Shown in pieces: positions 1,091 through 24,004 of a stretch of 64,000 nt of DNA. Below the pieces are notes generated by a model. That model saw nothing but the letters and a program-made list of their open reading frames with translations, searched no databases and was not told the origin of the DNA. A program made the translations under genes and the position numbers. This DNA comes from Patescibacteria group bacterium (GTDB lineage Bacteria; Patescibacteriota; Patescibacteriia; UBA10025; JAHIVO01): positions 622,503-686,502 of the forward strand of contig JBAZWB010000001.1 in the NCBI GenBank assembly GCA_041660605.1, written 5' to 3'. Position 1 is the first letter of the stretch. Every line of letters starts with the position of its first letter.

Positions 1091-1156
1091 AATTATGCGA
1101 ATTGTTGTATTTTACGGAAAAATAGACGTGCAGATATTGTACCAAATAAAATGCAT

Positions 1157-4550: not shown

Positions 4551-4605
4551 ATTAAAGTTTATAACAAAAAACGTTATTAATAACTAATAGCGATTAAAAA
4601 CGCAC

Positions 4606-6389: not shown

Positions 6390-7939
6390 AAGAATTTATT
6401 TGCAAAAGAAGAGTATAATGTCTTAATATCATTTTTGTTAACGCCCTTAAAAACGTATAATAAAACAAAATATACAGCCGCACCTAAAGGCATCAGAATG
6501 AATATTGATAAATCATTTTTTAATAATAAAAGCACGATACCCATCAAAGCAGCAGCACAAAATATTTTCAGTAAATAGTTTATCAACTTTTTTTTGTCAT
6601 ATTCTACGATTTTTCCAATCCATCTCAAACCCAGGAAAAACAGTACGATGCCGCTTATCAACGCAGCTACGGCAGCGCCATTTAAACTGTATTTTGGGAT
6701 TAAAATAATGTTTATTATTACATTAATAACCACAATAATGGCCATATTTATTGTGTTAACTACCTGCTTATTGCAGGCATTTAAAAATGCGCCAACAGGA
6801 AAATTCAAGAATACTACGATTAAACCCATAATTAATATCCTCAAAGGCTGAATTGAAGTTTCATAAACGTCCCCATACATAGTCAATATGATTTTATCAG
6901 CCAGTACGAATATTCCGATTGAGATTGGCAGCGATAATACCATCAAATAGTGCATCGCTTTTTCAAAGGTTTTAGCCAGATCTTTTCTCGAGTGTACGAA
7001 AAAATAGCTCATAGCTGGAAAAATACTGGCAGCAAAAGCTGAAGGAATAAACTCAAGCGCATATGTAAGCTTATGTGCCGTAACATACCACCCGACGAAG
7101 CTTTGCCCGGAGATCTTCAGAAGCATGAATCTGTCAGTATAAGTGTAGATTTTGACGAAAATTGCAGCAATTGCAAAAGGTAAAGCGAACTTCATAAACT
7201 TTTTAATGATTTCCATATCCCAGCGCAGCGTTACCCGAATCTTCGCTTTCTTAATCAGCATTGTAAGAGAAAATACAAAATTAAAAATACTTCCTGCGGC
7301 TACTGCAATAAAAAGAGCTTGTAATCCCCAATTCAATGAAATACTTAAAACGCCGAAAATAATGGTTAATATTTGCGTACCAATCATTCCCATTGCTTCA
7401 AATTTCATGTTTTGCAATCCTCGGAAAACCGCAAAAAAAGTCAAGGTAAATGTATCTAAGGCAACTATAACTGCATCAAGATATAAAACCGTTTTTACAA
7501 TATTTGAGTAATTAGAAAAATTTGTGTACAAACCCATAGAAAGTACCACGACCAAAGCAAAAATTAATTTTATGCCTAATACACTGCCAAGATATGATTC
7601 GGTTTTATTCGGGTCTCTGGCAATTTCACGCACCAAAACCACACTTAAACTGAAATCTATCAGGATAAGAAAAATAGGTATTAAAGATTTTACCGGATCA
7701 TAAAGTCCCAGATCCACAGGTCCCAGATATCTGGCAATATATACAAAATACAAAAAAGAGAGAATCTTTTGCAGTATAAAAGCGATGGTAAGATAGCTAG
7801 TATTTTTTAAAATTCTCTCCTGAGCTTGACCGTTATTATATGACGAGTCAATTTGATTAGCGTTTTTGCCATTGAGGAGCTCGTCGTGCTTTTTTAAGTC
7901 CATATTTTTTTCTTTCTTTGACACGAGAATCCCGGACAA
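6386..7939 (-). CDS. Wzx-like polysaccharide flippase (MOP/MATE superfamily)
   Basis: About 12-14 TM helices and a typical Wzx size. It is adjacent to the glycosyltransferases. The annotated 5' end overlaps the rpsI 3' end by 83 nt with no in-frame internal ATG, so the true start is uncertain. Confidence 0.65.
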   Translation of the reverse strand: MSGILVSKKEKNMDLKKHDELLNGKNANQIDSSYNNGQAQERILKNTSYLTIAFILQKILSFLYFVYIARYLGPVDLGLYDPVKSLIPIFLILIDFSLSVVLVREIARDPNKTESYLGSVLGIKLIFALVVVLSMGLYTNFSNYSNIVKTVLYLDAVIVALDTFTLTFFAVFRGLQNMKFEAMGMIGTQILTIIFGVLSISLNWGLQALFIAVAAGSIFNFVFSLTMLIKKAKIRVTLRWDMEIIKKFMKFALPFAIAAIFVKIYTYTDRFMLLKISGQSFVGWYVTAHKLTYALEFIPSAFAASIFPAMSYFFVHSRKDLAKTFEKAMHYLMVLSLPISIGIFVLADKIILTMYGDVYETSIQPLRILIMGLIVVFLNFPVGAFLNACNKQVVNTINMAIIVVINVIINIILIPKYSLNGAAVAALISGIVLFFLGLRWIGKIVEYDKKKLINYLLKIFCAAALMGIVLLLLKNDLSIFILMPLGAAVYFVLLYVFKGVNKNDIKTLYSSFANKFL

Positions 7940-11057: not shown

Positions 11058-11450
11058 TTATTTTTTATCTGCAGCGCCACGTCGTCCTGAACCCATTGTT
11101 CTTCTAACATTTCCCCTGACTGTTCGTGAATTAGTTTTTGTTCTCTGCCCCCTGGCAGGTAATCCGTGCGCGTGCCTAGATCCGCGATATGAGCCGATCT
11201 CACGTAAACGCTTGACATTCATTAATATTTCTCGTTTTAATTCGCCTTCGACTTTAAATTTTTTTTCGATTAAATCACGCAGATTATTTACCTCAGCTTC
11301 GCTTAAAAGCTGTGTCTTTTTATGCTGATCAATTTTAGCTTCGGCTAAAATTTTTGAGGAGGTTGTTCTGCCAATACCAAAAATATAAGTTAACGCTATT
11401 AGTATTTCTTTATTTTGTGGCAAAGTTATGCCAGCTATACGTGCAGCCAT
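11058..11450 (-). CDS. rpsM: 30S ribosomal protein S13
   Basis: [35 protein letters not shown]. Confidence 0.95.
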
Positions 11451-11455
11451 ATTTA

Positions 11456-11569
11456 TTATCCTTGTCTTTGTTTATGCTTAGGATTAGAACAAATTACATA
11501 AACGCGTTTTTTTCTTCTAACGGTTTGGCACTTAGAGCAAATTTTTTTTACTGATGTTCTTACTTTCAT
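11456..11569 (-). CDS. rpmJ: 50S ribosomal protein L36 (37 aa). Missed by the ORF track because it is too short.
   Basis: Hand translation of the minus strand gives [37 protein letters not shown]. It sits between infA and rpsM, as in the conserved operon. Confidence 0.85.
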
Positions 11570-11573
11570 AGAA

Positions 11574-11828
11574 CTAGTGTCTATAAATGATTCTTCCTTT
11601 TGTTAAATCATAAGGGGTCATTTCGATAGTTACGTGATCACCTGGTAAAATCCTGATTTTATTAATTCTCAATCTGCCTGATAAATGAGCTTGTATTATA
11701 TGATCATTTTCTAATTTTACTTTAAAATTTGTTGCTGGCAATAATTCCTCGACTGTACCCTCAACTTCAATAAATCCTTTTTTATTCTGCTTAGAATTCA
11801 GTTGCTTATTTTCTTTATTAACTTCCAT
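11574..11828 (-). CDS. infA: Translation initiation factor IF-1 with an N-terminal extension of about 15 aa
   Basis: [31 protein letters not shown]...[24 protein letters not shown] is an S1-like OB fold. Confidence 0.9.
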
Positions 11829-12044
11829 AAATAAAATTTAATTAAAAAAAATTACCTACAATTAAGAGGCAAAAATAAAATAACTAAATAGTTAAATTTT
11901 AAGTCAATTCTTGCCTAAGGCTTGTATTCAGAATAAATAAATTTTCAAACTTGTATGTACAATTATAACAAATCAATTTTTTTTGTCAACACTAATTATT
12001 TATTAATTTCTTATACATTTAAATTTAGCTAATATTAGGTAAAT

Positions 12045-13859
12045 TTATTGTAAAATTGCTTTAATCCGTCGTATTCCAGCCGAAGAAGATTTTTCAGTAG
12101 TAATTTTAAAAAGTCCTAATTCATTTGTGTTTTTTACGTGTGGGCCACCGCAAATTTCCTTCGAAAAGTCCCCGATAGAATATACTTTAACTTTTTCGGG
12201 GTATTTTTCCTTGAAAAAAGCCAAAGCACCATTTTTTACTGCTTCAGTATAAGTCATATTTTGACAATTTATCGGTAATGCCTCTTTAATCTTTTTATTT
12301 ACTAAATTTTCAATTTTGTTTTTTTCTTCTTCAGAAATTTTGCCAGGATGCTCGAAATCAAATCTTAACCTTTCTAGATTTATATCAGAACCCTGCTGGC
12401 GCACATGATTGCCTAATATTTCTCTTAATGCCTGATGCAGCAGATGAGTAGCGGTATGATATTTTGTTATCTGATTTTTTTCTTTAGCGGTCCATTCAGA
12501 ACTGTTTATGCCATGACCACCAAATTTCGATTTAACGTCAGCTCGGGATAAATGTTGATGTTCTGCGATTTTTTTATCAAATTCTGCCTGATTAAAATCA
12601 AATCCTTTCCGGTGTAAGCGGTCAGATGATATTCCATAGGTTGAATATAAAATAAACGCCTCTTCAGCACTGATATGCTGCTGTGATAATTGTGGTTCTT
12701 TTTTTGTATTATTTAACTGGATATTCTTTAACTTACTTACGATTTGGAATACGTCTAAATCTAGAATTTTTTTATAAGCTATAAGCTCTCTAGCCATCTG
12801 CGATTTTATTGTATTTTCGTGTGTTTTTAAATCATGATACTGATCCTGATAGATTTTTATGACACAATCCGCATATTCTGAAACATTAATGTCATTGTAA
12901 ATAAACTGGTCAAGAGCACGACGAAAAATCCTTCGTAAAATGTAGCCTTGCTCCTTATTGCTAAATGAAATCCCATCAGCCAATAAAAACACACTGCCTT
13001 TTAAATGATCAGCGGCAATTTTACTGCGTACATCATCTTCCATTGTGCCTAAATAGCCAAATTGCTTATCTTTCTTTATCTGCAATAATAAAGGTTTAAA
13101 CAGGTCAGTGGCAAAAATATTTTCTTTTTTTTGCAAAATTAAAGCCAATCTTTCCAAACCCATTCCAGTGTCTATATTTTTTGTCGGTAATGCTGTAAGT
13201 TTCTTTTTTTCATCCAGGTTGAATTGCATGAATACCAGATTCCACAGTTCCATAAACCTTCCGCAGCGACAATTTGGCAGGCATTTATCTTTTAATTCGC
13301 AGGGCTGGCCGGTAAAATCATAATGTATCTCAGAACATGGACCGCAAGGTCCGGTTTTACCTGGCGGGCCCCACCAGTTTTCGCTCTTACCAAATTCGAT
13401 TATTTTTTCTTTTGGCAGGTACTTGAGCCAAATATTATAAGTTTCGATATCTTTCTTTGAATTTGAATCGCCGGAATAATAGGTAGCCCATAATTTTTTT
13501 AAATTGATACGTAATTCACTTTTTAAAAAAATCCAGGCATATTTTATAGCTTCGTTTTTAAAATAAAGGTTAAATGAAAAATTGCCAAGCATCTCAAAAA
13601 ATGTATTGTGGATATTATCCCCTACCTGATCTATATCAGAAGTTCTGAAGCATTTTTGGATTGAAACTAATTTCTGTGAATTATAAATCTGCTGAGTATT
13701 TTTTGCTCCGAGGAAAAAAGGCTTGAACTGCTGCATGCCTGCAGTTGTAAGCAATACTGATGGGTCATCCTGTGGCCAAAGAGAAGAAGACGGTACTTCA
13801 ATATGACCGGCTTTTTTGTAGTAGTGTATAAATATTTTTCTGATTTTTTCTGAAGTCAT
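12045..13859 (-). CDS. alaS: Alanine--tRNA ligase. The catalytic, tRNA-recognition and editing domains are present and the C-Ala/DHHA1 domain is absent.
   Basis: HYYKKAGHIEVPSSSLWPQDDPSVLLTTAGMQQFKPFFLG is the AlaRS class II core. HTATHLLHQALREILGNHVRQ and CGGPHVKNTNELGLFKI are the editing site. The protein ends at 604 aa. Confidence 0.9.
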   Translation of the reverse strand: MTSEKIRKIFIHYYKKAGHIEVPSSSLWPQDDPSVLLTTAGMQQFKPFFLGAKNTQQIYNSQKLVSIQKCFRTSDIDQVGDNIHNTFFEMLGNFSFNLYFKNEAIKYAWIFLKSELRINLKKLWATYYSGDSNSKKDIETYNIWLKYLPKEKIIEFGKSENWWGPPGKTGPCGPCSEIHYDFTGQPCELKDKCLPNCRCGRFMELWNLVFMQFNLDEKKKLTALPTKNIDTGMGLERLALILQKKENIFATDLFKPLLLQIKKDKQFGYLGTMEDDVRSKIAADHLKGSVFLLADGISFSNKEQGYILRRIFRRALDQFIYNDINVSEYADCVIKIYQDQYHDLKTHENTIKSQMARELIAYKKILDLDVFQIVSKLKNIQLNNTKKEPQLSQQHISAEEAFILYSTYGISSDRLHRKGFDFNQAEFDKKIAEHQHLSRADVKSKFGGHGINSSEWTAKEKNQITKYHTATHLLHQALREILGNHVRQQGSDINLERLRFDFEHPGKISEEEKNKIENLVNKKIKEALPINCQNMTYTEAVKNGALAFFKEKYPEKVKVYSIGDFSKEICGGPHVKNTNELGLFKITTEKSSSAGIRRIKAILQ

Positions 13860-13917
13860 TGTTTAATGATAAGTAATCTAGTAATATTTGTAAATATTTG
13901 ATTTGTGTCGTAAAATA

Positions 13918-14991
13918 CTATTTTATTATTGCACCACCACCCAGCATTCTCTTACCTTGGTACAATACAATAAATTGGCCTGGCGTAATTGCTCTTTGTT
14001 TTTTATTAAATGTTAATTGATAATAATTATTTGATTTGTTGACTTTACATGCCTGCAAAGGCTGCCTGTACCTGATTCTGGCTTTGCATAAAATTGGAAA
14101 GTGCGTGGTTTTATTTATCCAATTTATTTTTTTTATTACCGCACAATTTTTATACAATTTGCTTTTCAACGAATCATTACAAACAACCAAAATATTTGTT
14201 TTAAATTTCTTTTCGCAGACATAATATGGCTTTTTTGCAGCTATATTTATACCATGTCTCTGCCCTATAGTGAAGAATGGAAGCCCGTCGTGTTTTCCGA
14301 GAACGACGTTTTTTTCGTCTTTTATAAGCCCTGGTTTAATATTGATAAATTTTTTAATAAAATCTGAAAATTTTACTTTTCCAATAAAACAGATTCCCTG
14401 ACTGTCTTTTTTATCATATACCGGCAATCTGTATTTTTTCGCAATTTTTCTGACTTCCTGTTTTTTAAACCGGCCCAGAGGAAACAATGAGTGATGAAGT
14501 TGTTTTTGAGTTAATAATGACAAAAAATAAGACTGATCCTTTTTTTTATCTATTGCTTGTAATAATGTATATTCACTGTTTTTGAGTACTTTTTTCTGAA
14601 CATAATGGCCAGTTGCAATAAAATCTGCTCCCATTTTTTTTGCCTTTTCCAGAAAAACTTGAAACTTTATCTCCTTATTGCACAGCATGTCGGGATTTGG
14701 AGTTATTCCATCTTTATACCCATTAATTAAGTAATTTACAACCTTTTTTCTGTATTGCTCTTCAAAAATTTCAATTTTTCCAGGTATCTGTATTTTTTTA
14801 CAAACTGCTTTAAAATCAGCTATATCGTCTTTCCAAACGCATTGATCAGCCAATGGGTCAGACCAATTCTTCATATATACCCCAGTTACATCATACCCCT
14901 GTTTTTTTAGTAAAAGGGCGGCAACAGAAGAGTCTACGCCGCCTGACATTGCGACAAATACATGACTTTTTTTTTCTTTATTCATTTTCAA
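13918..14991 (-). CDS. mnmA: tRNA-specific 2-thiouridylase MnmA
   Basis: VFVAMSGGVDSSVAALLLKKQGYDVTGVYMKNW is a PP-loop SGGxDS motif, with a typical MnmA C-terminus. Confidence 0.9.
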   Translation of the reverse strand: MKMNKEKKSHVFVAMSGGVDSSVAALLLKKQGYDVTGVYMKNWSDPLADQCVWKDDIADFKAVCKKIQIPGKIEIFEEQYRKKVVNYLINGYKDGITPNPDMLCNKEIKFQVFLEKAKKMGADFIATGHYVQKKVLKNSEYTLLQAIDKKKDQSYFLSLLTQKQLHHSLFPLGRFKKQEVRKIAKKYRLPVYDKKDSQGICFIGKVKFSDFIKKFINIKPGLIKDEKNVVLGKHDGLPFFTIGQRHGINIAAKKPYYVCEKKFKTNILVVCNDSLKSKLYKNCAVIKKINWINKTTHFPILCKARIRYRQPLQACKVNKSNNYYQLTFNKKQRAITPGQFIVLYQGKRMLGGGAIIK

Positions 14992-16283
14992 ATATTTTCA
15001 ATTACTTCTCTGATGTTTTTCATTATTAAAGAATTGTAGTCAGATTCAGTAATATTTGACGCAGCGAGAATGGCATTTTGGGGTTTATGATTTCTTCTTC
15101 TCTGATATTTTCTTGGGTAGTTATTTTCAATACTGCCATTTGAAAATATATAAACATTAATCCTTTTTAATTTATTAATTAATTCAATTTCTGATTCTGC
15201 AAAACGTCCTTTAATGACTTTTTGGATGACTTTTATTGCGGTATCATAGAGCGCGTCACGATCCAGTAGTACAATAAATGGAATATTGAACATTTCCAGC
15301 AAATCGGCATAAATATCAATATTACTCTTACCATAGGTTTGAATTACTTTGATATTTTTTTCTCCGTGATAAAATCGGTCAATCATCGATCGCATTAAAA
15401 TATGATCAGAGGGTCCCTCTACCAGCAAGACTTTGTCCGCAAAAAACATCTCGCAATTTTCGGCATTTAGCTCCTGTTTTAACCGATCGTAATTAATTTT
15501 TTTACCCAGTAACCTTGGAGAGTATACGTGAATTGATTTTTCATCCCTGGTTACTCTGAATAGTCGATGTAAATTTGTGGTATGAATGAAAATTGGCGAA
15601 TGTGTTGTTAAAAAAATCTGGTCAAAATTATTTTCATTTTCGATGATATCAAGTAATTTTTTTACTAAGGCAGGATGCAGATGAATTTCCGGCTCTTCTA
15701 AGAGCAAAATCGTGTATTGGGGATGAAATAAATATAATAAAATCGTGAAAACTGATTTAAATCCATCTCCTAAATTATTGAAGATTTCAGCCATATTATC
15801 GCTTGACCTGACAAAAATATCATCGGTAATCAAAAGCTTGGGTATTTTTTCGTTTAATAGTTCCGTAAAACGCTTGAATTCATCAGGATATTTTTCCTTA
15901 AAATTCAGATAATCTTTTCTAATTAAATTGACATCAGGAGGGTTTGTAGCTCTTAGACGGATAATGCATCTTTTAAGAATATTTTGCGCTTTTAATAGAG
16001 TAATTTTTTCACCGTCAAGATAAAAAACCTTTAAATTGCCTCGCTGATGTAATTCTAATTCTGTGCCAAGATCACTGGTAAGGCTGAATAAAGCATCAAT
16101 TCTTGCATTCTTGTCGCATAATTTTATATTTTTTGTTGAATACAGCTGATTTATGGCATCAAGAATACTGGTTTTACCAACATTATTCTGACCTATGAAA
16201 ATATGGATTTTACCAGGGTTTTTTAAATAAAATGGATCATTTATACCTCTGTATTTCTGAATATTCAATTCTTTTATACGCAT
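14988..16283 (-). CDS. OLD-family ATP-dependent endonuclease, with an N-terminal ABC-type ATPase and a C-terminal TOPRIM domain
   Basis: Walker A is FIGQNNVGKTSILDAI. The Walker B/D-loop is TILLLEEPEIHLHPAL and the H-loop is FLTTHSP. The TOPRIM motifs are VLLVEGPSDHIL and VLLDRDALYD. It overlaps the mnmA start by 4 nt. Confidence 0.7.
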   Translation of the reverse strand: MRIKELNIQKYRGINDPFYLKNPGKIHIFIGQNNVGKTSILDAINQLYSTKNIKLCDKNARIDALFSLTSDLGTELELHQRGNLKVFYLDGEKITLLKAQNILKRCIIRLRATNPPDVNLIRKDYLNFKEKYPDEFKRFTELLNEKIPKLLITDDIFVRSSDNMAEIFNNLGDGFKSVFTILLYLFHPQYTILLLEEPEIHLHPALVKKLLDIIENENNFDQIFLTTHSPIFIHTTNLHRLFRVTRDEKSIHVYSPRLLGKKINYDRLKQELNAENCEMFFADKVLLVEGPSDHILMRSMIDRFYHGEKNIKVIQTYGKSNIDIYADLLEMFNIPFIVLLDRDALYDTAIKVIQKVIKGRFAESEIELINKLKRINVYIFSNGSIENNYPRKYQRRRNHKPQNAILAASNITESDYNSLIMKNIREVIENI

Positions 16284-16318
16284 AAGATTCCTGAATTTAT
16301 TTATAGTATATTATTAAA

Positions 16319-16774
16319 TTAATAAAGCCGTTCAACAGTTAATTTTTTATAAAATAAACTTAGTGATTTCACTTGCTGTTCGTTTGGTTCAATTAATGGT
16401 CTTTTGGTTTTTATTTTTTTAATCGCTTTTTCGGGCTTCATATTGTCTCTCATTACAAAATAGGCTGCTACTAATGTTGGCGAACGACCTTCGCCTGCAC
16501 GACAGTGAATATAGCATTTCATTTTATTTTTTACTGAATTTGCGATAAAATCGGCTCCGATTTTCAGTTGAATCTGAGATGGTGCAGTAAAATCATATAC
16601 CGGCAGCCAGAGAAAGCCAATAACACTGGACGGAGTATCTTCTTTTTCTTCCTGCAGATCAACATCGGTTTTTATGCCTATTTTTAGCAATTGCTGAAAA
16701 TGCTTCTTGCAGCAGATAGATGTGCCAATATAAATATATTTTTCAATCTGTGAATATTCCAAATGACGTTTCAT
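16319..16774 (-). CDS. Dual-specificity/tyrosine protein phosphatase (CX5R family)
   Basis: The active-site P-loop is HCRAGEGRSPTLVAAYFV (HCxxGxxRS/T). Confidence 0.7.
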   Translation of the reverse strand: MKRHLEYSQIEKYIYIGTSICCKKHFQQLLKIGIKTDVDLQEEKEDTPSSVIGFLWLPVYDFTAPSQIQLKIGADFIANSVKNKMKCYIHCRAGEGRSPTLVAAYFVMRDNMKPEKAIKKIKTKRPLIEPNEQQVKSLSLFYKKLTVERLY

Positions 16775-16825
16775 AACATTCTACATATGAATTAATTTAT
16801 TTCTTCAATGATATTCAGCAATCAT

Positions 16826-17995
16826 TTATATAGATGATAAGCTAATCGAGCCTGTACCAATTTCCAAAGTAAAATCAATCTTTTTTAAACCCTTATCGTA
16901 ATTTTCTGAAAAAAATGTTTCATCCTCAGCAATTTTCATATCGTTAACTTTTATACTGCCAGTGCCTACGGATGATTTAATACTATAGGAAACATCAATT
17001 GGAACGCTTATCTTTAACTCCCCTGTCCCGCCGCTAATGTCAGCATTTATTAATTTGGTTTCTGAATTTCCCTCAAAACCTAATTTAACCGAGCCTGTAC
17101 CGAATTCTCCCGTTATACTTGTTAAATTTTCGCTACCTAAACCGGCGATAATTAATCGGCCTGTTCCCACGTCGAAACTCAGACTGGAACTAAGCGGATT
17201 CGTACCGCTAAAATTAACATTCATTTCGCCTGTCCCAACTTTAGCATCGAAGTGCGACATTGACTGATTATTCAGGTATATTTCTGAATTTCCGGTGCCA
17301 ATATTCAAATCTAAATCCGTATCAATTTCCGAAAAACCTAGATTTACATTATAATCTGATTTTGTACCACCCCAGCCGAATATACTGAAGGCGCCATTAT
17401 TTTTATTTGAGTAGTCCAAGTTTAGACTATCATTGCTATAAACCTCAGACAATGTGGGCTCTAAATTTTGGTAATTGTATGTGGCCGTAGAAGTAAAATA
17501 GTTTTCTTTATCCGGACTATTTGACAAATTAAATTTTCCAATTCCTAATTCAGTTACTAAACTAATTTTTTTTAGATTATCGTATTTAATTTTTGGTATA
17601 TTAAATTGTTTTGTAGTTGTCTGAATTTTTTTATTGTTAAATGTAAAATTCCAGTTACTGGTAACCAATCCAAAATTATCAGCGAATATACCCGCAAACA
17701 GCGTAAAAATTATGCTTAATATTAATATTATTATTAATAAAAAAATAACCCAGGCTCCAATTTTATTTCTGCTAAAAATCATGCCCAAGCCAATTATGAT
17801 TATTAATATTGGCCAAACATATGACCAGTTTATATCAATACCTAAATTGGATAATAGCAGCAATAGTCCAAGCATTATCAAAATCAATGGCCCAAAAATT
17901 GACTTCTTTTTATTTGTAGTTTTCACATTTGAATCTGGACTTTTTTGATCTGGATTGTTTATCGTTTTATCATTATTCAATGGCTCACTGACCAT
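16826..17995 (-). CDS. LiaF/PspC-like membrane protein with a C-terminal toastrack (DUF4097-like) beta-repeat domain
   Basis: A disordered N-terminus is followed by two TM hairpins with GLLLLLSNLG...WPILIIIIGLG motifs. About 8 repeats of (V/I)GTG(S/E)(I/L/M)K/N (IGTGNSEIYLN, VGTGEMNVNF, FGTGSVKLGF and so on) are typical of toastrack domains. Confidence 0.6.
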   Translation of the reverse strand: MVSEPLNNDKTINNPDQKSPDSNVKTTNKKKSIFGPLILIMLGLLLLLSNLGIDINWSYVWPILIIIIGLGMIFSRNKIGAWVIFLLIIILILSIIFTLFAGIFADNFGLVTSNWNFTFNNKKIQTTTKQFNIPKIKYDNLKKISLVTELGIGKFNLSNSPDKENYFTSTATYNYQNLEPTLSEVYSNDSLNLDYSNKNNGAFSIFGWGGTKSDYNVNLGFSEIDTDLDLNIGTGNSEIYLNNQSMSHFDAKVGTGEMNVNFSGTNPLSSSLSFDVGTGRLIIAGLGSENLTSITGEFGTGSVKLGFEGNSETKLINADISGGTGELKISVPIDVSYSIKSSVGTGSIKVNDMKIAEDETFFSENYDKGLKKIDFTLEIGTGSISLSSI

Positions 17996-18002
17996 AATTA
18001 AT

Positions 18003-18203
18003 TTAACTTATTTTATTATTTGAGTCAGAATTTCTATAAATCAGATAAATGCCAATAATTATTATTATCACAGGTAACCAAATATTTTCCACCCACTGAT
18101 AGCCAAGATTGCCTAATAACCAAAAAATTCCAGTAATTATCATAATTATTGGCCAAAAAGATATTTTAACTTTTTTCAAATTGCTATCACTCATTTTTCT
18201 CAA
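18003..18203 (-). CDS. Small membrane protein, a paralogous LiaF/PspC-type TM hairpin module
   Basis: WPIIMIITGIFWLLGNLG...WLPVIIIIIGIYLI is the same motif as in the flanking genes. It overlaps the upstream gene by 17 nt. Confidence 0.45.
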   Translation of the reverse strand: MRKMSDSNLKKVKISFWPIIMIITGIFWLLGNLGYQWVENIWLPVIIIIIGIYLIYRNSDSNNKIS

Positions 18204-18690
18204 ACTCTTCCTGATGATTTTCTAGCTTATTTCTTTTATACAATAAAAATAAACCGGCAATTATTATTATTATAGGCCACCATTTGCCATCGGTAACCGT
18301 GCTGAGAAGTACTATGGCGGAGACGGTAGTCAAGATCCAGCCAGGTATTAGATAACCTCTATTCTTTTTTTGTGGGAAATAATAAGCGCAAAAGAAACCC
18401 AGGCCTATTGCCAGGGTAAACAAGAAGGAAGTTTCGCCGGCAAACTTATAATTTGTATATTCATTATAAAAAAAGTATAAACTATATATTATTAATATCG
18501 TACCTGGTATCAATAAGCCGCCGTCTCTATTTTTATTCCAAAAAAATATCACCCATAATGCTATGCCAGGCAAAAGTAAAAAAATAGGCCAAAATGAGCC
18601 AAAATTTATATCTAATCCAAATTGATCAGCCAGCAATAATAGTCCTAGAGCGATCATTACAACTCCCCAAAATATTCTTGATTTAGACAT
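18187..18690 (-). CDS. Membrane protein with repeated LiaF/PspC-type TM modules
   Basis: GVVMIALGLLLLADQFG...WPIFLLLPGIALWVIFF and WWPIIIIIAGLFLLY repeats are present, with 4-5 TM helices. Confidence 0.5.
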   Translation of the reverse strand: MSKSRIFWGVVMIALGLLLLADQFGLDINFGSFWPIFLLLPGIALWVIFFWNKNRDGGLLIPGTILIIYSLYFFYNEYTNYKFAGETSFLFTLAIGLGFFCAYYFPQKKNRGYLIPGWILTTVSAIVLLSTVTDGKWWPIIIIIAGLFLLYKRNKLENHQEEFEKNE

Positions 18691-18753
18691 ATCGAAAATA
18701 GATTATGTTCTAAACATAGCACATAATTTCCAATTTTTCAATAATCACTAATT

Positions 18754-20382
18754 TTATATTTTTACGATCTGCCCAGGTTTCAATGTGTGTGAATTATTCA
18801 TCTTAGGCTGATGAGGACGAAAGTTATTTTTTGCTACAGGTTTAAATTTGGGTTTTTCTTGGATCGCCTCAGGATGCTTGTCGGGGCGCTTATTATAAAA
18901 ACTCTGTGGTTTTTGCATTAATGCCTGTTGCAAGGAAATTCCCTTATTACTGCTGTCCAGTGTAATGGTTTCCAATTTGCCTATTTCAATCTCTGTCTTT
19001 TTCTCAGGCTTATTGTGAAAATTAGGAGTACTTTTTGGATGGTTAAAGGCTGATTTTTTTTGAGGGGGTTTATCGTATCCCTTTTCTTCTTTCATTACTT
19101 CATCAACGCCGGTCCAGCGTACTATTTTCTCTTCTACAATTTTACGCGGTTTTGTATACCTTTCACGGGAAACTTTAACAACTTTTCCTTTGTTATTTGT
19201 TAAAGCTGCTTCCGGCGGTAACGTTGTTGCGGAAAATGGTTCAGAGGCAACACCATCAATCATTAATTTTAAATAAACATTATATTTCGTTAAATTCAAA
19301 AGATCATCTTCTGTAAAAGTAGGAAAAAATTCTTTTGCCAAAAATTCAGCATCTGCTGCACCGACCCTAAAGCACATTATGGTACCAACGTTACCAAAAA
19401 CCGCAGCTCTCACTTCTTCATCCAGCTGTTCGATGTATTGATGAGCAAGAACTAAACTAAGTCTGTATTTTCTCGCTTCAGATAAAATACTGGCAAAACT
19501 TTCTGTGGCAAAATTTTGAAATTCGTCTACATACAAATAAAAATCTTGCCTGTCCTTTTCTTCAATGTCAACGCGGCTCATAGCGGCCAATTGTATGCGG
19601 GTTATCATCATGGCGCCCAATAAGGAAGAGTTATCTTCACCAATTCTACCCTTGGATAAGTTAAGCAGTAATATCTTATGATTATCCATCAAATTTCGTA
19701 AATCGATGGTACTTTTTGGTTGTCCAACGATATTCCTGATGATTGCGCTTGAGAGGAACTGCCCCACTTTATTTTGAATAGGCGCTATCGCTTCGTTTCT
19801 AAAATTTGTATTGTAGTTTGCGTATTCATCTACCCAGAAACTTTTTACAATCGGATCAGTTAATTTGGATACTACTTTTTGCCTGTATCTTTTATCAACC
19901 AAAATTCTGGCAATGCCGAGCATCGTCGAGCCAGGAGATTCCAAAAGGGCTAAAATTGCGTTATTTAATATATATTCCATTCTAGCGCTCCAGACACCTT
20001 CCCATATTTTTGTGAAAACACCCATTAATCCGGAAGCAACTAAATGGCGCTGAGCCGGATCAACGCTTTCCAGGACATTAAAACCGATAGGAAAATCTAC
20101 ATCTGCCGGATTGAAATAAATTACGTCGTTAATACGATATGATGGGATATACTCAATTACTTTTTCAACTAGATCGCCGTGCGGATCAACTAGGGCCAGG
20201 CCGCGCCCAGATCTAATGTCAGAAATGACCATATTTTCCAAAACGGTAGTTTTCCCCATTCCAGTTTTACCGATTAAATACATATGCCGGCGCCGGTCGT
20301 CTTCTTTTATGCCAAAAACATTGTTCGCATTGCGAAAATTTGTTTTTGCAAAAGGCGTAATGTCGCTCTTATTATTTTCCAT
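18754..20382 (-). CDS. FtsK/HerA/TrwB-superfamily P-loop ATPase (DUF87 / T4SS-coupling-protein-like). The core is cytoplasmic and the C-terminus is a low-complexity tail.
   Basis: Walker A is LIGKTGMGKTTVL, followed by LVDPHGDL. Walker B is LYVDEFQNF and the arginine-finger/sensor region is ARKYRLSLVLAHQYIEQL. There is no TM helix. The C-terminal roughly 120 aa are K/P-rich. Confidence 0.65.
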   Translation of the reverse strand: MENNKSDITPFAKTNFRNANNVFGIKEDDRRRHMYLIGKTGMGKTTVLENMVISDIRSGRGLALVDPHGDLVEKVIEYIPSYRINDVIYFNPADVDFPIGFNVLESVDPAQRHLVASGLMGVFTKIWEGVWSARMEYILNNAILALLESPGSTMLGIARILVDKRYRQKVVSKLTDPIVKSFWVDEYANYNTNFRNEAIAPIQNKVGQFLSSAIIRNIVGQPKSTIDLRNLMDNHKILLLNLSKGRIGEDNSSLLGAMMITRIQLAAMSRVDIEEKDRQDFYLYVDEFQNFATESFASILSEARKYRLSLVLAHQYIEQLDEEVRAAVFGNVGTIMCFRVGAADAEFLAKEFFPTFTEDDLLNLTKYNVYLKLMIDGVASEPFSATTLPPEAALTNNKGKVVKVSRERYTKPRKIVEEKIVRWTGVDEVMKEEKGYDKPPQKKSAFNHPKSTPNFHNKPEKKTEIEIGKLETITLDSSNKGISLQQALMQKPQSFYNKRPDKHPEAIQEKPKFKPVAKNNFRPHQPKMNNSHTLKPGQIVKI

Positions 20383-20384
20383 AA

Positions 20385-21809
20385 TTAAGCAAATGGTAAA
20401 TTAACAGGCGGTGTACCTTTAGGTTCGGCAGTTGACGTCGGCTTACCAGAGGCAGGTTTAGATGGTTGTTTCGAAAAAACGCTTTCTTCTTCCATTGGTA
20501 ATCCCATAGGCGGAGTTGATTTTCTTGCGTCAACCGTCTGTACGGAAGGTACTTTTATGTCAATTTGTGGGAAATGCCATAATGTAGCCAATTCTTCTAT
20601 ATTCAGAACGAATCCCGGCCTGCCTCTTTTCATGCTTCTATATCTATAACCCCATAAAATTCTTCTAATTCTACCTAGTAATCTTGTTTTTATGAAATAG
20701 TAGTCAATTTTAGTCCTGGTTTTTTTATTAACAACAAAACCATTTAAATTCTGCGAAGTAAATTGCGCGAATGCGCCGTTTATTGCATACGTACCCTTAG
20801 ACTTATTAAATCTGTCTTTTGGTGCTGAATATATGTATCTAATTTTTGTTTTGAAGCCAAGCTTGCCGATTTTCATGCCAACTGCTTCTACCACCTCTTT
20901 TTCCTGGGGAGATAAATGCTGCATCATACTCGGCCATTCCCTCTCTTTTTTTTGCTTTTGTTCGCCCATTTCAGTAGTTGGGACAAATGTAGCGGTAAAT
21001 GATTCAGATAACCCCCGACCTATTTCCCTGGGAAAATACATCAGATCAACTCCTTTTTTATCAGATTTCTTGCCAATCAGCTTATTAATGAGTGCTAAAC
21101 CTTTTTTCCTCCATTCCTCTCCAACTGGCGCTATGATAATTTGTATCCATAAGCTCTCTCCGGGACCCATGCGACTCATAATTTCTAAAATTGAAGCCAT
21201 GGGATCCATTAATTTCTGCGATAAACTGTGCTCAAATAACGGATAAGTCCGTATCGGATATAAATCGGTATTTTGTAATTTGAATTCTGTCCCCCATATA
21301 TCATATTTAGGATGATAAAATTCTAAAGGTTTTGGTATCATATCAACATAATCCTCAACTTCGGTAATTTCAGCATCTGGATACTGCGCATAAACGGCCG
21401 CTTCAACTAAATCGCGAAACTTAACTGGAGTGCGAATTAAAAACTGGATATACCCTTCTATACTGACAATTTCCAAACTAAAGCTTGGCTGCGTATATCC
21501 TTTGATATATTTATCTTTTAAATTTCCAGATTTTTTTATGCCGTACAAATGAGAAAAAATATGTTCAACAGCCTTAGGACTTTGTTCATTATTTTTAGGA
21601 ATGTCAATTGCCAAAAGGACAAACTTCAAGGAACTATCATAACGATTGCGAATATACTCCTTATATGCTTCCCATAATCCCCAAAATATTACAGCTAGCA
21701 CGAAAATCCATCCGCCTTTGAGAAAAATAAAAACCATGGCACTTAACGGGTTTGAAGTGCTTGGCAGGGAGTTAAATAATGTTACCGGATCAAAAAGTAA
21801 AAAATTCAT
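20385..21809 (-). CDS. Hypothetical membrane-anchored protein, operonic partner of the ATPase
   Basis: One or two N-terminal TM helices (MVFIFLKGGWIFVLAVIFWGLW). There is a 2-nt spacing to the downstream ATPase and a 19-nt spacing from the upstream regulator. The tail is P/S/T-rich. I recognise no known domain. Confidence 0.45.
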   Translation of the reverse strand: MNFLLFDPVTLFNSLPSTSNPLSAMVFIFLKGGWIFVLAVIFWGLWEAYKEYIRNRYDSSLKFVLLAIDIPKNNEQSPKAVEHIFSHLYGIKKSGNLKDKYIKGYTQPSFSLEIVSIEGYIQFLIRTPVKFRDLVEAAVYAQYPDAEITEVEDYVDMIPKPLEFYHPKYDIWGTEFKLQNTDLYPIRTYPLFEHSLSQKLMDPMASILEIMSRMGPGESLWIQIIIAPVGEEWRKKGLALINKLIGKKSDKKGVDLMYFPREIGRGLSESFTATFVPTTEMGEQKQKKEREWPSMMQHLSPQEKEVVEAVGMKIGKLGFKTKIRYIYSAPKDRFNKSKGTYAINGAFAQFTSQNLNGFVVNKKTRTKIDYYFIKTRLLGRIRRILWGYRYRSMKRGRPGFVLNIEELATLWHFPQIDIKVPSVQTVDARKSTPPMGLPMEEESVFSKQPSKPASGKPTSTAEPKGTPPVNLPFA

Positions 21810-21828
21810 TTCGTTGCTAATTTTGTTT

Positions 21829-22944
21829 TTACTCCACTAATGCATATGTCCCATCCGAGAGTTTTTTGAATTTTGTTTTATCGGTTAGCGCTAAATGAAT
21901 GGTATTCTTTTTTACCAGTCTTTGTTCAAGTACTTTCTCAACTAAATCATCGCGCGTTAATGGTTTTTCATTTTTTTGAATAATCTCTTTCAATACGTTG
22001 GCCACTACCCCAGGCTTATATCCCCACTCTTTCAGAGCATAAATGCCTCGGCCGACTAGCACATATTGATCGTTTAATATAAGTTCGTTATGGACAGTCG
22101 GAGGATAGGCTTTTCTGGTGTCAAATTTTGCGTCATTTATTCTTTTTGCAATCTCCGTAAAATGAAGAGGTTTACCATATTTTTTTAAAATTAAATAAAT
22201 TTTATCATTCATTCTTTTCGGAATTATACTCCCCCACTCAATTAATCCATATTCGTTAAAAGGATTTTTAGATATTTTCGAGCTTATTTCCAGATATGAA
22301 TGAATCGCTTCTACAGACAGTTGGATCTGATTTTTTTGGTAAAACTCGGTTTTTTGAAATTCTGAAATTACGTCATCTAGAATTACCGGTTTACTTTTTT
22401 CCTGAATTATTCGAAGTAACTCATTAATGGATTCTTTCATCAATAATATTGGCGCATGCAATATCTGCCATGATTTTTTAAATTCAATACTGAGTTTGAT
22501 TTCTTTGAATTTATGCTTAAGTAATTCAGAAATGATAAATATAATATTCTGACGATTAATTGAAGTATCTCCAACCGCCTGTAATAAAAGTTTAAGCATC
22601 ATTTCTTGATTTATTACTCCGCCATATTGTTCCAAAACAGAAAAAATTGTAGCTTCAACTGGCGAAATAATGTCGTTGAAGTTCTTTATCTTTTTAATTT
22701 TTTTTATCCCCGTTGACTCAATCTGCCTTATTCGCTCTCTGGTCACCTGATATGTTTCTCCAATTTTTTCTAAAGTTTCTCTTTCTTTGCCTAGTAATCC
22801 ATGGCGTCTCCTCAATACATCCTCTTCCCGTGAAGTAAGATTTTTTAATAATAAAGAGACTACTTCCGTAGGATTAAATTGCTCAATCTCATTCGTTTTT
22901 TTACTGCTAATTATACGGTCTAAAATTGAATTATTTTGATCCAT
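21829..22944 (-). CDS. DNA-binding protein with a sigma-70 region 4-like HTH near the N-terminus and a HARE-HTH winged helix in the C-terminal region
   Basis: LTSREEDVLRRRHGLLGKERETLEKIGETYQVTRERIRQIESTGIKKIK matches sigma region 4. KPLHFTEIAKRINDAKFDTRKAYPPTVHNELILNDQYVLVGRGIYALKEWGY matches the HARE-HTH consensus. Confidence 0.55.
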   Translation of the reverse strand: MDQNNSILDRIISSKKTNEIEQFNPTEVVSLLLKNLTSREEDVLRRRHGLLGKERETLEKIGETYQVTRERIRQIESTGIKKIKKIKNFNDIISPVEATIFSVLEQYGGVINQEMMLKLLLQAVGDTSINRQNIIFIISELLKHKFKEIKLSIEFKKSWQILHAPILLMKESINELLRIIQEKSKPVILDDVISEFQKTEFYQKNQIQLSVEAIHSYLEISSKISKNPFNEYGLIEWGSIIPKRMNDKIYLILKKYGKPLHFTEIAKRINDAKFDTRKAYPPTVHNELILNDQYVLVGRGIYALKEWGYKPGVVANVLKEIIQKNEKPLTRDDLVEKVLEQRLVKKNTIHLALTDKTKFKKLSDGTYALVE

Positions 22945-23098
22945 AGCATTAATTTAATGAAATAACATCTTTAGTATAGCATACTTTGGTATTTGTGTCA
23001 AGAGATTCCTCTGATTAAAACAAATTATTGATTTATTTGCAAATAAAAAAACATACATATTAATATATATGGGTATTGAAATTTATACTTATTTAACT

Positions 23099-24004
23099 TT
23101 ATTTGTTGGGTCTGAGTGAAAAATTTCTCCAAACTACAAGCAATGGGCTGGCAATGAATATAGATGAATATGTACCTGCAGTTATGCCGATCAGCAAAGC
23201 TAGAATGAAATACTGGATTGAACTTCCCCCGAATAAATACAGTGCCAGTAAAACTAATAATGTAGTCAATGATGTGTTTAGTGATCTAACCATCGTTTGA
23301 TTAACACTTTCATTTACCGTTTGTTCGAAAGTTTTTTCTGCATGCAATTTCAATCTTTCTCTTATTCTATCATAAACCACGATGGTGTCATGCACTGAGA
23401 ATCCCAAAACGGTAAGTAAAGCAGTGATAAATAATATATCGATCTCTACGTTAAAAAATTTTCCTAAAATTGCAAAGATCCCCACTACTATAAAAATATC
23501 ATGGACTAAAGCTATGACAGCACCCAATCCATACACCCATGGTTTAACGATATTGCCTGAAATTTTTCGAAAAGCAAAAGATATATAGAGAATTATCGAT
23601 AGTAAAACCAGTATCACAGCTATTATGGCTTTCTGTTTCAGCTCTTGCCCTATAATCGGGCCGATTGATTCAAAACTTCCTTCCTGTACATCAGGATATT
23701 TAATTTTTAATTTTGCTAAAATATCCTGATATGTCTGATTATCAATATTTTTAAGTCTGATTGTAAATTCGTTATTTCCTAGCGGCTGAACAAATATATT
23801 ATTGTCATTGGCAACTTCATTTACTAGGCTTTTGATATCACTGATTGACGGCTGTTCATTTGGGATTGTTACTCTGATCAAACTGCCACCAGTAAAATCG
23901 ATGCCCAGTTTCAAACCGCCCATGGCAATTGCAATAATGCCGGGAATCATAATAATCGCCGAAACTATAAACCAGATATTTCTTTTACCAATTAAATTAA
24001 ACAT
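23099..24004 (-). CDS. secF: Protein translocase subunit SecF
   Basis: LGIDFTGGSLIRV, followed by 6 TM helices. It is immediately downstream of secD. Confidence 0.9.
   Translation of the reverse strand: MFNLIGKRNIWFIVSAIIMIPGIIAIAMGGLKLGIDFTGGSLIRVTIPNEQPSISDIKSLVNEVANDNNIFVQPLGNNEFTIRLKNIDNQTYQDILAKLKIKYPDVQEGSFESIGPIIGQELKQKAIIAVILVLLSIILYISFAFRKISGNIVKPWVYGLGAVIALVHDIFIVVGIFAILGKFFNVEIDILFITALLTVLGFSVHDTIVVYDRIRERLKLHAEKTFEQTVNESVNQTMVRSLNTSLTTLLVLLALYLFGGSSIQYFILALLIGITAGTYSSIFIASPLLVVWRNFSLRPNK

What the first reader, a model, noticed from the sequence alone, without database searches (positions are those of the whole stretch)
14988..16774. Standalone OLD-family ABC-ATPase/TOPRIM nuclease with an adjacent Cys-based dual-specificity phosphatase, wedged between mnmA and an envelope-stress module
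The 431-aa protein has a complete ABC ATPase head (Walker A GQNNVGKTS, Walker B/D-loop LLLEEPEIHLHP, H-loop TTHSP) fused to a TOPRIM nuclease (LLVEGPSD and LLDRD). This is the architecture of P2 Old, Gabija GajA and PARIS AriA/B, all anti-phage effectors. No UvrD/GajB-like helicase partner is present here. The nearest co-directional neighbour is instead a CX5R protein phosphatase (HCRAGEGRS), 36 nt downstream. An OLD nuclease paired with a phosphatase is not a described defence configuration. At 431 aa the protein is also shorter than typical OLD or GajA proteins. The 4-nt overlap with the housekeeping mnmA is unusual for a defence gene and could mean operon capture.
Basis: partly seen in the sequence, partly recalled or inferred. 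Interest (0 to 1): 0.7.

Follow-up and report, generated by a model that had tools for sequence, protein, structure and literature searches.

The report
Lineage-fixed OLD nuclease in CPR bacteria
The gene is a real, catalytically intact OLD-type ATPase-nuclease, but it is a compact version inherited vertically as a fixed chromosomal gene in tiny CPR bacteria, and the neighbouring phosphatase is only a local neighbour, not a defence partner.

Summary
Window 14988-16283 (-) encodes a 431-aa ABC-ATPase + TOPRIM protein of the OLD family. Window 16319-16774 (-) encodes a 151-aa CX5R dual-specificity phosphatase (DUSP).

- The OLD protein has no helicase, reverse-transcriptase or AriA partner.
- It belongs to a compact clade found only in Patescibacteria (CPR) and DPANN archaea. 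This is the uncharacterised clade "U2" of Yang et al. 2025.
- It is not a sporadic defence gene. Each genomic-context group is one clade in the OLD tree, and OLD divergence tracks mnmA and alaS (Mantel r 0.90-0.95).
- Every informative mnmA-anchored locus of the window's lineage carries it (6/6 inspected, 18 more inferred).
- It is absent from viral, phage and plasmid collections, and it always sits among housekeeping genes. In DPANN it lies between dnaK and dnaJ.
- The DUSP is adjacent only in the window's own sub-lineage (about two-thirds of loci, 0 of 68 elsewhere). DUSP relatives occur without OLD.

An OLD+DUSP defence pair is therefore not supported.

My preferred reading is an ATP-gated two-metal nuclease fixed as a resident cellular gene, with a Cran1-like lifestyle. 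A lineage-fixed single-gene defence remains a serious rival. Interest is moderate.

The parts
14988..16283 (-). Gene for the 431-aa OLD-family ATPase/TOPRIM nuclease (CPR/DPANN clade 'U2')
15504..16283 (-). ABC ATPase head, residues about 1-260. Walker A G31-S39 (K37); R109 as a Q-loop candidate; signature-like G172xG174F; Walker B E196/E197; D-loop H203; H-loop H228. The helical insert is short (about residues 111-170).
   Evidence: Motif positions. Invariant columns in alignment A1. Equivalence to TsOLD K34/H140/E276/H283/H310 from PMC7049728 and the HMM alignment. Secondary structure.
14988..15434 (-). TOPRIM nuclease domain plus C-terminal helices, residues 284-431. Metal A E289/D341/D343; metal B D293/S384/E386; R391 or K392 as the transition-state Arg/Lys. 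There is no Class 2 helical insert.
   Evidence: PF20469 at residues 280-343. Invariant E289, D293, D341, D343, E386. Spacing matches TsOLD E377/D381/D431/D433/S478/E480/R487.
15435..15503 (-). ATPase-TOPRIM linker, residues 261-283: the clade-specific motif RLxQELNA[DE]NxEMFFAD, the most conserved stretch of the family
   Evidence: Region conservation 0.75. The motif served as a diagnostic peptide pattern.
16284..16318 (-). 35-nt DUSP-OLD spacer with an AGGA Shine-Dalgarno-like motif. No terminator-like hairpin lies in the spacer; two weak promoter-like matches (9-10 of 12) lie inside the DUSP gene upstream.
   Evidence: Sequence. Scan.
16319..16774 (-). Upstream neighbour: 151-aa Cys-based dual-specificity phosphatase (HCRAGEGRS). 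A syntenic neighbour, not a conserved partner of OLD.
   Evidence: Pfam DSPc 1e-20. No PADLOC hit. Adjacent to OLD only in clade A. Homologues occur without OLD.
13918..14991 (-). Downstream neighbour mnmA (tRNA 2-thiouridylase). The start is either TTG 14991 (4-nt overlap) or ATG 14985 (2-nt gap). It is followed by alaS, infA, rpmJ, rpsM, rpsK, rpsD, rpoA and rplQ.
16826..22944 (-). Upstream co-directional context: three LiaF-like membrane proteins (16826-18690), a TrwB/VirD4-like ATPase (18754-20382), a DUF8128 protein (20385-21809) and a Sigma70_r4/HARE-HTH protein (21829-22944). The strongest promoter-like site (11 of 12, with TG) of this upstream context lies at 23001-22973.
   Evidence: The trio is conserved across CPR.

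Best explanation
The 431-aa protein is a catalytically intact, stand-alone OLD-family enzyme: an ABC ATPase head fused to a TOPRIM nuclease. It belongs to a compact clade restricted to CPR bacteria and DPANN archaea (clade U2 of Yang et al. 2025).

Its architecture is a minimal Class-1-like OLD. It has no TOPRIM helical insert, and the helical insert in the ATPase domain is shortened.

Inferred mechanism, by homology to TsOLD and Cran1: ATP binding and hydrolysis by the head (K37, E197, H203, H228) licenses two-metal cleavage or nicking of nucleic acid by the TOPRIM site (E289/D341/D343 and D293/S384/E386, with R391 or K392).

Shown here: the gene is fixed in the chromosome and inherited vertically among housekeeping genes, and the DUSP is an incidental lineage-local neighbour.

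Inferred role: a resident cellular function such as genome maintenance or cell-cycle control, comparable in lifestyle to the archaeal class 5 OLD Cran1, rather than a mobile phage-triggered defence module.
For: Family and active site:
- Pfam, PADLOC and PDB profile hits.
- AF2 model pLDDT 88.5.
- All catalytic residues are invariant in 25 homologues at 37-61% identity and map onto the mutationally validated TsOLD residues.

No partner:
- The neighbours differ between lineages: mnmA/alaS; DUF6938 / EamA-like / GH-like; glycogen genes; hisIE/HAD; grpE-dnaK-[OLD]-dnaJ in DPANN.
- None is a helicase, reverse transcriptase or AriA.

Vertical inheritance:
- At least 378 species-level genomes carry it, nearly all CPR.
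- Every context group is monophyletic in the OLD tree, and DPANN is sister to CPR.
- OLD pairwise identity co-varies with mnmA (r 0.95), alaS (0.90) and GlgA (0.98), and its mean identity (0.52) is like mnmA (0.55) and alaS (0.58).
- Only about 33 representatives at 50% identity exist, with a sharp score gap to other OLD proteins.

Core gene in its lineage:
- Of the lineage-A mnmA clusters, 18 share the same longest contig length as an OLD cluster.
- Of 7 further clusters looked up, 6/6 informative loci carry OLD. One is split only by a 100-N scaffold gap.

Not mobile:
- No full-length member in IMG/VR, INPHARED phages or PLSDB plasmids.
- GC and GC3 match the neighbours.
- The scanned ORFs (about positions 260-37100) gave no defence-gene, integrase or transposase hits, and the 64-kb window has no tRNA.

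Precedent: Cran1, a vertically inherited, essential, non-defence OLD in Sulfolobales (PMC12796447).
Against: - Every bacterial OLD characterised so far acts in phage defence. Class 1 OLD proteins are by definition isolated genes, and E. coli YbjD is a chromosomal OLD with anti-phage phenotypes.
- The least conserved parts (residues 51-170 and 346-376) could be a diversifying sensor surface.
- Lineage-wide prevalence was measured only for the window's lineage, and partly by the indirect contig-length match.
- Sharing between CPR and DPANN implies at least one old inter-domain transfer.
- There is no experimental or expression data, and no activity or substrate has been shown.
- The protein is not homologous to Cran1 beyond the generic ATPase motifs, so the analogy concerns lifestyle only.
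- CPR phages and plasmids are poorly represented in the collections searched.
Confidence: 0.5

Rival explanations
1. A single-gene, Class-1-type OLD anti-phage defence that became fixed in these small genomes. It would be constitutive innate immunity: the ATPase senses infection and the TOPRIM domain nicks phage or host DNA or cleaves tRNA, giving abortive infection.
For: - All characterised bacterial OLD proteins are defensive: P2 Old, Vc OLD, GajA, Eco8, AriAB, YbjD.
- The top PADLOC models are Old and GajA.
- The closest structures are TsOLD and GajA.
- The stand-alone context matches the operational Class 1 definition.
- The helical and beta regions of the ATPase are variable.
Against: - Characterised defensive Class 1 genes lie on prophages or sporadic mobile islands (P2; the V. 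cholerae PDE next to DarTG).
- This clade is absent from the viral, phage and plasmid sets searched.
- It is strictly syntenic and co-diverges with housekeeping genes.
- It is present in all informative loci of its lineage.
- It is embedded in housekeeping operons, including dnaK-dnaJ.
- All NCBIfam defence equivalogs score far below their cut-offs.
Confidence: 0.38
2. One reading: OLD and the adjacent CX5R phosphatase form a new two-gene defence system, with the phosphatase as sensor, regulator or co-effector.
For: - The genes are co-directional with a 35-nt spacer and no terminator-like hairpin in the spacer.
- The adjacency is kept in about two-thirds of clade-A loci.
Against: - 0 of 68 OLD loci outside clade A have a DUSP.
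- Six clade-A loci keep OLD without it (L005, L060, L081, L082, L222, L223).
- DUSP homologues at 44% identity sit beside a two-component system, inside a GAPDH-Rpe sugar-phosphate cluster, or elsewhere, all without OLD.
- There is no co-divergence (Mantel r 0.12, p 0.32).
- There is no PADLOC match for the DUSP.
- Every adjacency in this block is equally conserved, so the pair carries no special signal.
Confidence: 0.04
3. A nuclease acting on tRNA or other RNA and tied to translation. P2 Old and AriB cut tRNA, and here the gene abuts mnmA (s2U34 of tRNA-Lys/Glu/Gln) and alaS.
For: - OLD/TOPRIM nucleases can cleave tRNA (PMC12445682 and PMC12409363, listed).
- OLD-mnmA-alaS adjacency is kept throughout clade A.
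Against: - The mnmA-alaS-infA block is old CPR synteny that mostly lacks OLD: 3 of 80 VirD4-anchored loci have it.
- Other lineages place OLD next to unrelated genes.
- Extra genes can separate OLD from mnmA.
Confidence: 0.06
4. A RecF/SbcC/SMC-type housekeeping ATPase without a functional TOPRIM domain.
Against: - The TOPRIM domain passes the Pfam cut-off (62.6 bits against 23.2).
- All metal-binding residues are invariant.
- Full-length OLD structures match best.
Confidence: 0.01

Closest known systems
Class 1 OLD nucleases (Thermus scotoductus OLD, PDB 6P74; P2 Old; V. cholerae OLD; E. coli YbjD)
   Same: - A single gene with no dedicated partner.
- N-terminal ABC ATPase plus C-terminal TOPRIM, without the Class 2 helical insert.
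- The same catalytic set: Walker A Lys, Walker B Glu, D-loop His, H-loop His; E/DxD and D/SxE metal sites; a downstream Arg/Lys.
- Best sequence and fold match.
   Different: - About 95 aa shorter, mainly through a reduced helical ('dimerization') insert in the ATPase.
- It forms a separate clade (U2) outside Class 1 in the published tree.
- It is restricted to CPR and DPANN.
- It is chromosomally fixed and vertically inherited, rather than prophage- or island-borne.
Class 5 OLD, Cran1 of Sulfolobales (PMC12796447)
   Same: - A small OLD (about 55 kDa) confined to one lineage.
- Vertically inherited with conserved synteny.
- Not associated with defence genes.
- Intact ATPase and nuclease sites.
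   Different: - No specific homology. Only the Walker A and Walker B/H-loop regions align.
- Cran1 has a TOPRIM helical insert and a conserved membrane-protein partner. This clade has neither.
- The Cran1 function (essential, cell-cycle) is shown by experiment. Here nothing is.
Gabija GajA (Class 2 OLD)
   Different: - No GajB/UvrD-like helicase in any of more than 100 loci.
- No TOPRIM helical insert.
- About 150 aa shorter.
PARIS AriA/AriB (Class 4) and retron Eco8 OLD (Class 3)
   Same: ABC ATPase and TOPRIM chemistry. Weaker profile and fold matches.
   Different: - The domains are fused in one protein, unlike split AriA/AriB.
- No reverse transcriptase nearby and no Rfam ncRNA hit in the window.
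- The NCBIfam Eco8 score is 60 bits against a cut-off of 250.

Membership tests
OLD family (ABC ATPase + TOPRIM nuclease) | N-terminal ABC/SMC-like ATPase with Walker A, Walker B, D-loop and H-loop | tested here: met
   AAA_21 2e-22 and AAA_15 3e-19. K37, E197, H203 invariant and H228 nearly invariant. Fold match to OLD, SMC and Rad50 heads.
OLD family (ABC ATPase + TOPRIM nuclease) | C-terminal OLD-type TOPRIM with a Glu and a DxD metal site | tested here: met
   PF20469 at 62.6 bits against a cut-off of 23.2. E289, D293, D341, D343 invariant.
Class 1 OLD | Isolated gene with no UvrD-like helicase, reverse transcriptase or AriA next to it | tested here: met
   Neighbour clustering across 80 OLD-anchored loci, plus later loci. 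None of the recurrent neighbour families that were given a Pfam scan is one of these partners.
Class 1 OLD | Metal B SxE site and a downstream Arg/Lys with TsOLD-like spacing, and no C-terminal helical domain | tested here: met
   S384-x-E386 lies 41 residues after D343 (45 in TsOLD). R391/K392 lie 5-6 residues after E386 (7 in TsOLD). Residue-level superposition was not done.
Class 1 OLD | Four-helix dimerization domain inserted in the ATPase; stable homodimer | tested here: inconclusive
   The model shows four short helices between residues 118 and 186, and the N-terminal half is about 63 residues shorter than in TsOLD. The oligomeric state cannot be tested with these tools.
Class 1 OLD | Phylogenetic placement inside the Class 1/2 clade | tested here: not met
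   Dataset EV1 of PMC12796447 places the close relative OIP80295 (about equal to P0101) and Kerfeldbacteria and DPANN sequences in a separate clade, U2. There is a sharp bit-score gap to other OLD proteins.
Clade U2 (CPR/DPANN OLD, uncharacterised) | Sequence membership: RLxQELNA[DE]N linker, EPE[IT]HLHP, NYP[RK][KR]YQ motifs; CPR or DPANN host | tested here: met
   Alignment A1. The pattern-based scan finds at least 378 species, nearly all CPR or DPANN. U2 sequences in the supplement share these motifs.
Gabija (Class 2) | Adjacent GajB helicase and a TOPRIM helical insert | tested here: not met
   No helicase in the window or in any homologous locus. The DxD-SxE spacing is Class-1-like.
Retron type I-B (Class 3) / PARIS (Class 4) | Adjacent reverse transcriptase plus ncRNA, or split AriA/AriB genes | tested here: not met
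   No reverse transcriptase among the neighbours. No Rfam hit. The domains are fused. NCBIfam Eco8 scores 60 against 250.
Class 5 (Cran1) | Specific sequence homology, a TOPRIM helical insert and a conserved membrane-protein partner | tested here: not met
   BLASTP aligns only the generic ATPase motifs. There is no conserved partner.
Anti-phage defence gene (behavioural criteria) | Patchy distribution, horizontal transfer, location in defence islands or mobile elements | tested here: not met
Anti-phage defence gene (behavioural criteria) | Protection against phage infection | not testable with these tools
   Requires a phage-challenge experiment.
Dual-specificity phosphatase (the neighbour) | DSPc fold with an HCX5R(S/T) P-loop and an upstream general-acid Asp | tested here: met
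   PF00782 at 74 bits against a cut-off of 33.5. HCRAGEGRS 90-98 and D61 in PVYDFTAP.

The most novel reading that the evidence does not exclude
The CPR/DPANN clade U2 may be a domesticated OLD nuclease with a housekeeping role in ultra-small cells. It would be a bacterial counterpart, by lifestyle, of archaeal Cran1.

Possible roles include nicking or processing chromosomal DNA during replication, repair or division, or a stress-linked function, given that the gene sits inside the dnaK operon in DPANN. If so, non-defence OLD functions would have arisen at least twice, and OLD would be part of the conserved gene set of several CPR lineages.
Probability: 0.4. Interest if true: 0.7.

Novelty: new variant of a known kind. 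Interest (0 to 1): 0.45.

Why it matters
OLD nucleases are usually treated as phage-defence effectors. Only one exception is known (Cran1, in an archaeon), and whether OLD enzymes have non-antiviral roles is an open question in that field.

A compact OLD clade that is fixed and vertically inherited across hundreds of CPR species would be a second, independent candidate, and the first in bacteria. It sits in operons with tRNA-modification, tRNA-synthetase or chaperone genes.

It also warns against annotating every OLD hit as 'defence' when defence systems are counted in CPR and DPANN genomes. At 431 aa the protein is small and may suit structural and biochemical work as a minimal OLD.

Tried and rejected
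- **afdb50 fold search**, intended to find Cran1-like models. The library was unavailable.
- **Direct comparison with Cran1**, using the sequence in the paper's supplement. Only generic ATPase motifs align, so class 5 membership was rejected.
- **Promoter and terminator scan of 11400-23200.** Counts were not above the shuffled expectation, so the 'one long operon' idea stays an inference.
- **tRNA and Rfam scans of the window.** Nothing was found, so there is no retron ncRNA and no integration hallmark.
- **PADLOC on the DUSP, the LiaF-like protein and DUF8128.** No hits. The VirD4-like ATPase gave only weak mad8/HerA matches.
- **NCBIfam.** All hits were far below the cut-offs.
- **VirD4-anchored metagenome scan**, meant as an unbiased prevalence test. 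It mostly sampled other CPR lineages, and only 3 of 80 loci had OLD in the slot. It shows that the slot is lineage-specific but does not measure prevalence.
- **mnmA-anchored look-ups** were used for prevalence instead. L225 was uninformative because the contig ends too early.
- **A tRNA-linked role suggested by the mnmA adjacency** was considered and ranked low, because the adjacency is confined to one lineage.
Full report
**1. What is in the sequence**

All genes in the region lie on the minus strand.
- Window 14988-16283 encodes a 431-aa protein.
- Window 16319-16774 encodes a 151-aa protein.
  - In the large protein: Walker A GQNNVGKTS 31-39, Walker B/D-loop LLLEEPEIHLHP 193-204, H-loop TTHSP 226-230, and TOPRIM LLVEGPSD 286-293 and LLDRD 339-343.
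  - In the small protein: HCRAGEGRS 90-98.
- Pfam assigns AAA_21 (2e-22), AAA_15 (3e-19) and OLD-like_TOPRIM PF20469 (5e-17, above its cut-off) to the large protein, and DSPc (1e-20) to the small one.
- The best PADLOC models for the large protein are 'Old' (1e-32) and many GajA models. Nothing in PADLOC matches the phosphatase.

Three details need correction.
- The phosphatase is upstream of OLD on the coding strand, with a 35-nt spacer.
- The 4-nt overlap with mnmA depends on choosing a TTG start. With the ATG used by a public gene call there is a 2-nt gap.
- The junction is not conserved in relatives.

**2. Surroundings**

- Downstream on the coding strand lie mnmA, a 604-aa alaS, infA, rpmJ, rpsM, rpsK, rpsD, rpoA and rplQ.
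- Upstream lie three LiaF-like membrane proteins, a TrwB/VirD4-like ATPase, a DUF8128 protein and a Sigma70_r4/HARE-HTH protein. Beyond them are secF, secD, an L,D-transpeptidase, an ABC transporter and secA.
- The remaining ORFs scanned (positions 260-7939 and 34176-37103) encode glycosyltransferases and other housekeeping functions.
- The scanned ORFs (about positions 260-37100) include no integrase, transposase or recognised defence gene. The 64-kb window has no tRNA and no Rfam hit at gathering thresholds.
- GC content (0.31) and GC3 (0.28) of the OLD gene match those of mnmA and alaS.
- The exact protein is recorded on contigs of up to 960 kb, labelled Patescibacteria.
- This is a housekeeping stretch of a CPR chromosome, not a defence island.

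**3. Family and structure**

- A profile of 25 homologues finds the Class 1 OLD of Thermus scotoductus (6P74) as the best solved relative (2.6e-25). GajA, retron Eco8 OLD, PtuA and AriA follow.
- The residues shown by mutagenesis to be catalytic in TsOLD have counterparts here, most of them invariant:

| Role | TsOLD | This protein |
|---|---|---|
| ATPase | K34, Q-loop H140 (often Arg), E276, H283, H310 | K37, R109 (candidate), E196/E197, H203, H228 |
| Metal A | E377/D431/D433 | E289/D341/D343 |
| Metal B | D381/S478/E480 | D293/S384/E386 |
| Transition-state Arg/Lys | R487 | R391 or K392 |

  The spacing is nearly identical.
- The short length comes mainly from a reduced helical insert in the ATPase, about 63 residues fewer than TsOLD between Walker A and the signature region. 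The Class 2 TOPRIM helical domain is also absent.
- The enzyme is therefore predicted to be active in both domains. The mechanism, an ATP-controlled two-metal nuclease, is inferred by homology and has not been demonstrated.

**4. Distribution**

- The protein search returned more than 1,100 homologues. The top 120 full-length ones are all 417-475 aa at 36-61% identity, and every taxonomic name a source gives among them is Patescibacteria-type (Kerfeldbacteria, Komeilibacteria, Parcubacteria); most carry no name.
Nearly all are CPR, and a few are DPANN archaea.
- In a library of 1.84 billion representatives at 50% identity, only about 33 are full-length members. A sharp score gap separates them from ordinary OLD proteins of 600 aa or more.
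- Dataset EV1 of Yang et al. 2025 (PMC12796447) lists a near-identical relative of my P0101, together with Kerfeldbacteria, Nanoarchaeota and Woesearchaeota sequences, as the uncharacterised clade 'U2'.
- That paper read mixed bacterial/archaeal clades as consistent with defence-like horizontal spread.
- I found no paper in the searched library that discusses this clade further.

**5. Is the phosphatase a partner?**

I clustered the neighbours of 80 OLD-anchored loci.
- The DUSP is adjacent only in the window's sub-lineage (clade A, OLD 52-61% identical). There the whole block sigma-like / DUF8128 / VirD4-like / (LiaF) / DUSP / OLD / mnmA / alaS / infA is syntenic.
- Within that sub-lineage the DUSP is missing in L005, L060, L081, L082, L222 and L223.
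- None of the 68 loci from other lineages has it.
- From the DUSP side, only 46 homologues were found.
  - A 53%-identical one sits in the same synteny.
  - Homologues at 44% identity sit next to a two-component system, inside a GAPDH-Rpe-transketolase cluster, or elsewhere, all without OLD.
- DUSP divergence does not track OLD divergence (r 0.12).

The pairing is therefore shared ancestry of gene order, not a functional module.

**6. How the gene is inherited**

- Other lineages have their own stable contexts:
  - DUF6938 - OLD - EamA-like - GH-like, in about 44 loci;
  - OLD next to glycogen genes (GDE_C, GlgA);
  - hisIE - HAD - OLD in Jacksonbacteria;
  - grpE - dnaK - OLD - dnaJ in four of four DPANN loci.
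- In a neighbour-joining tree, every context group is monophyletic. DPANN is sister to all CPR rather than nested, and only one translocation is visible inside clade A.
- Pairwise identity of OLD co-varies with that of linked housekeeping genes: mnmA r 0.95, alaS 0.90, GlgA 0.98, and EamA-like, GH-like and DUF6938 about 0.9.
- The mean OLD identity (0.52) equals that of mnmA (0.55) and alaS (0.58).
- As a test not anchored on OLD, I took the mnmA proteins that are 54-66% identical to the window's.
  - Eighteen share the same longest contig length as an OLD cluster.
  - Seven others were looked up. Six informative loci all carry OLD upstream of mnmA. One of these genes is interrupted only by a 100-N scaffold gap. 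The seventh contig is too short to tell.
- No full-length member exists in IMG/VR or in phage genomes. The best plasmid hit is 31% identical over 36% of the length.
- A VirD4-anchored metagenome scan shows that the VirD4 ... mnmA-alaS-infA order is widespread in CPR. OLD occupies that slot only in this lineage (3 of 80 loci).
- OLD therefore entered the slot once and stayed.

**7. Interpretation**

Shown:
- This is a bona fide, intact, stand-alone OLD enzyme of clade U2.
- It is vertically inherited.
- It is core in its lineage.
- It is not mobile.
- It is not coupled to the DUSP.

Inferred:
- The biochemical mechanism is inferred by homology to TsOLD and Cran1.
- The biological role is also inferred.

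The behaviour contrasts with characterised defensive Class 1 OLD proteins, which lie on a prophage (P2) or on a sporadic defence element next to DarTG (V. cholerae). It resembles Cran1, the vertically inherited, essential, non-defence OLD of Sulfolobales. There is, however, no specific homology to Cran1.

I therefore favour a resident cellular function at about 0.5. A lineage-fixed single-gene defence remains a strong rival at about 0.38, because the prior from all other bacterial OLD proteins is strong and because E. coli YbjD is also a chromosomal OLD. The OLD+DUSP system is assigned about 0.04. A tRNA-linked role suggested by the mnmA adjacency gets about 0.06. A TOPRIM-less RecF-like ATPase is refuted.

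**8. Verdict**

- Novelty: a new variant of a known kind. This is a minimal, CPR/DPANN-specific OLD clade that has appeared in one published tree but has not been characterised. The finding here is its core-gene behaviour.
- Interest is moderate (0.45). It would rise if a non-defence role were demonstrated.

Noticed in passing
L072:5980-7635, L073:5146-6729, L075:5146-6726, L078:5440-6708: In four of four DPANN archaeal loci (records labelled Methanosarcinales TPA bins, Nanoarchaeota and Woesearchaeota), the homologous OLD gene is inserted between dnaK and dnaJ (grpE-dnaK-OLD-dnaJ). These versions are about 100 aa longer, through a larger insert in the ATPase.
   Followed up: partly
window 18754-22944 (-): A trio is conserved across many CPR lineages: a Sigma70_r4/HARE-HTH protein (371 aa), a DUF8128 protein (474 aa) and a TrwB/VirD4-like ATPase (542 aa, 56-84% identical across lineages). 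It often lies a few kb upstream of mnmA-alaS-infA. No other type IV secretion genes are adjacent, and its function is unknown.
   Followed up: partly
window 16826-18690 (-): Three consecutive LiaF-like membrane proteins (389, 66 and 167 aa). None of the neighbouring genes scanned is a LiaS/LiaR-type two-component gene. Their presence varies among related loci.
   Followed up: no
window 24008-25687 (-): The SecD homologue carries an inserted PPIC-type peptidyl-prolyl isomerase (rotamase) domain at residues 145-239.
   Followed up: no
window 35108-37103 (-): An arginase/agmatinase-family gene lies next to a deoxyhypusine-synthase-like gene in this CPR bacterium.
   Followed up: no
window 30250-31376 (-): A 2-thiouracil desulfurase family protein (PF04463) overlaps by 4 nt with an HD_4 domain protein.
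   Followed up: no
window 12045-13859 (-): The alanyl-tRNA synthetase is only 604 aa (catalytic core plus tRNA_SAD, with no C-terminal C-Ala region). The same short form occurs in all related loci.
   Followed up: no
L214:5001-5477: A DUSP homologue (44% identical) sits inside a glycolysis/pentose-phosphate gene cluster, between GAPDH and ribulose-phosphate 3-epimerase. This hints that these small bacterial DUSPs may act in metabolism rather than on proteins.
   Followed up: no
L224:4506-5959: The OLD gene was not called in this public scaffold only because a 100-N gap with a duplicated flank interrupts it. This is an assembly artefact that could mimic gene loss in presence/absence surveys.
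   Followed up: yes
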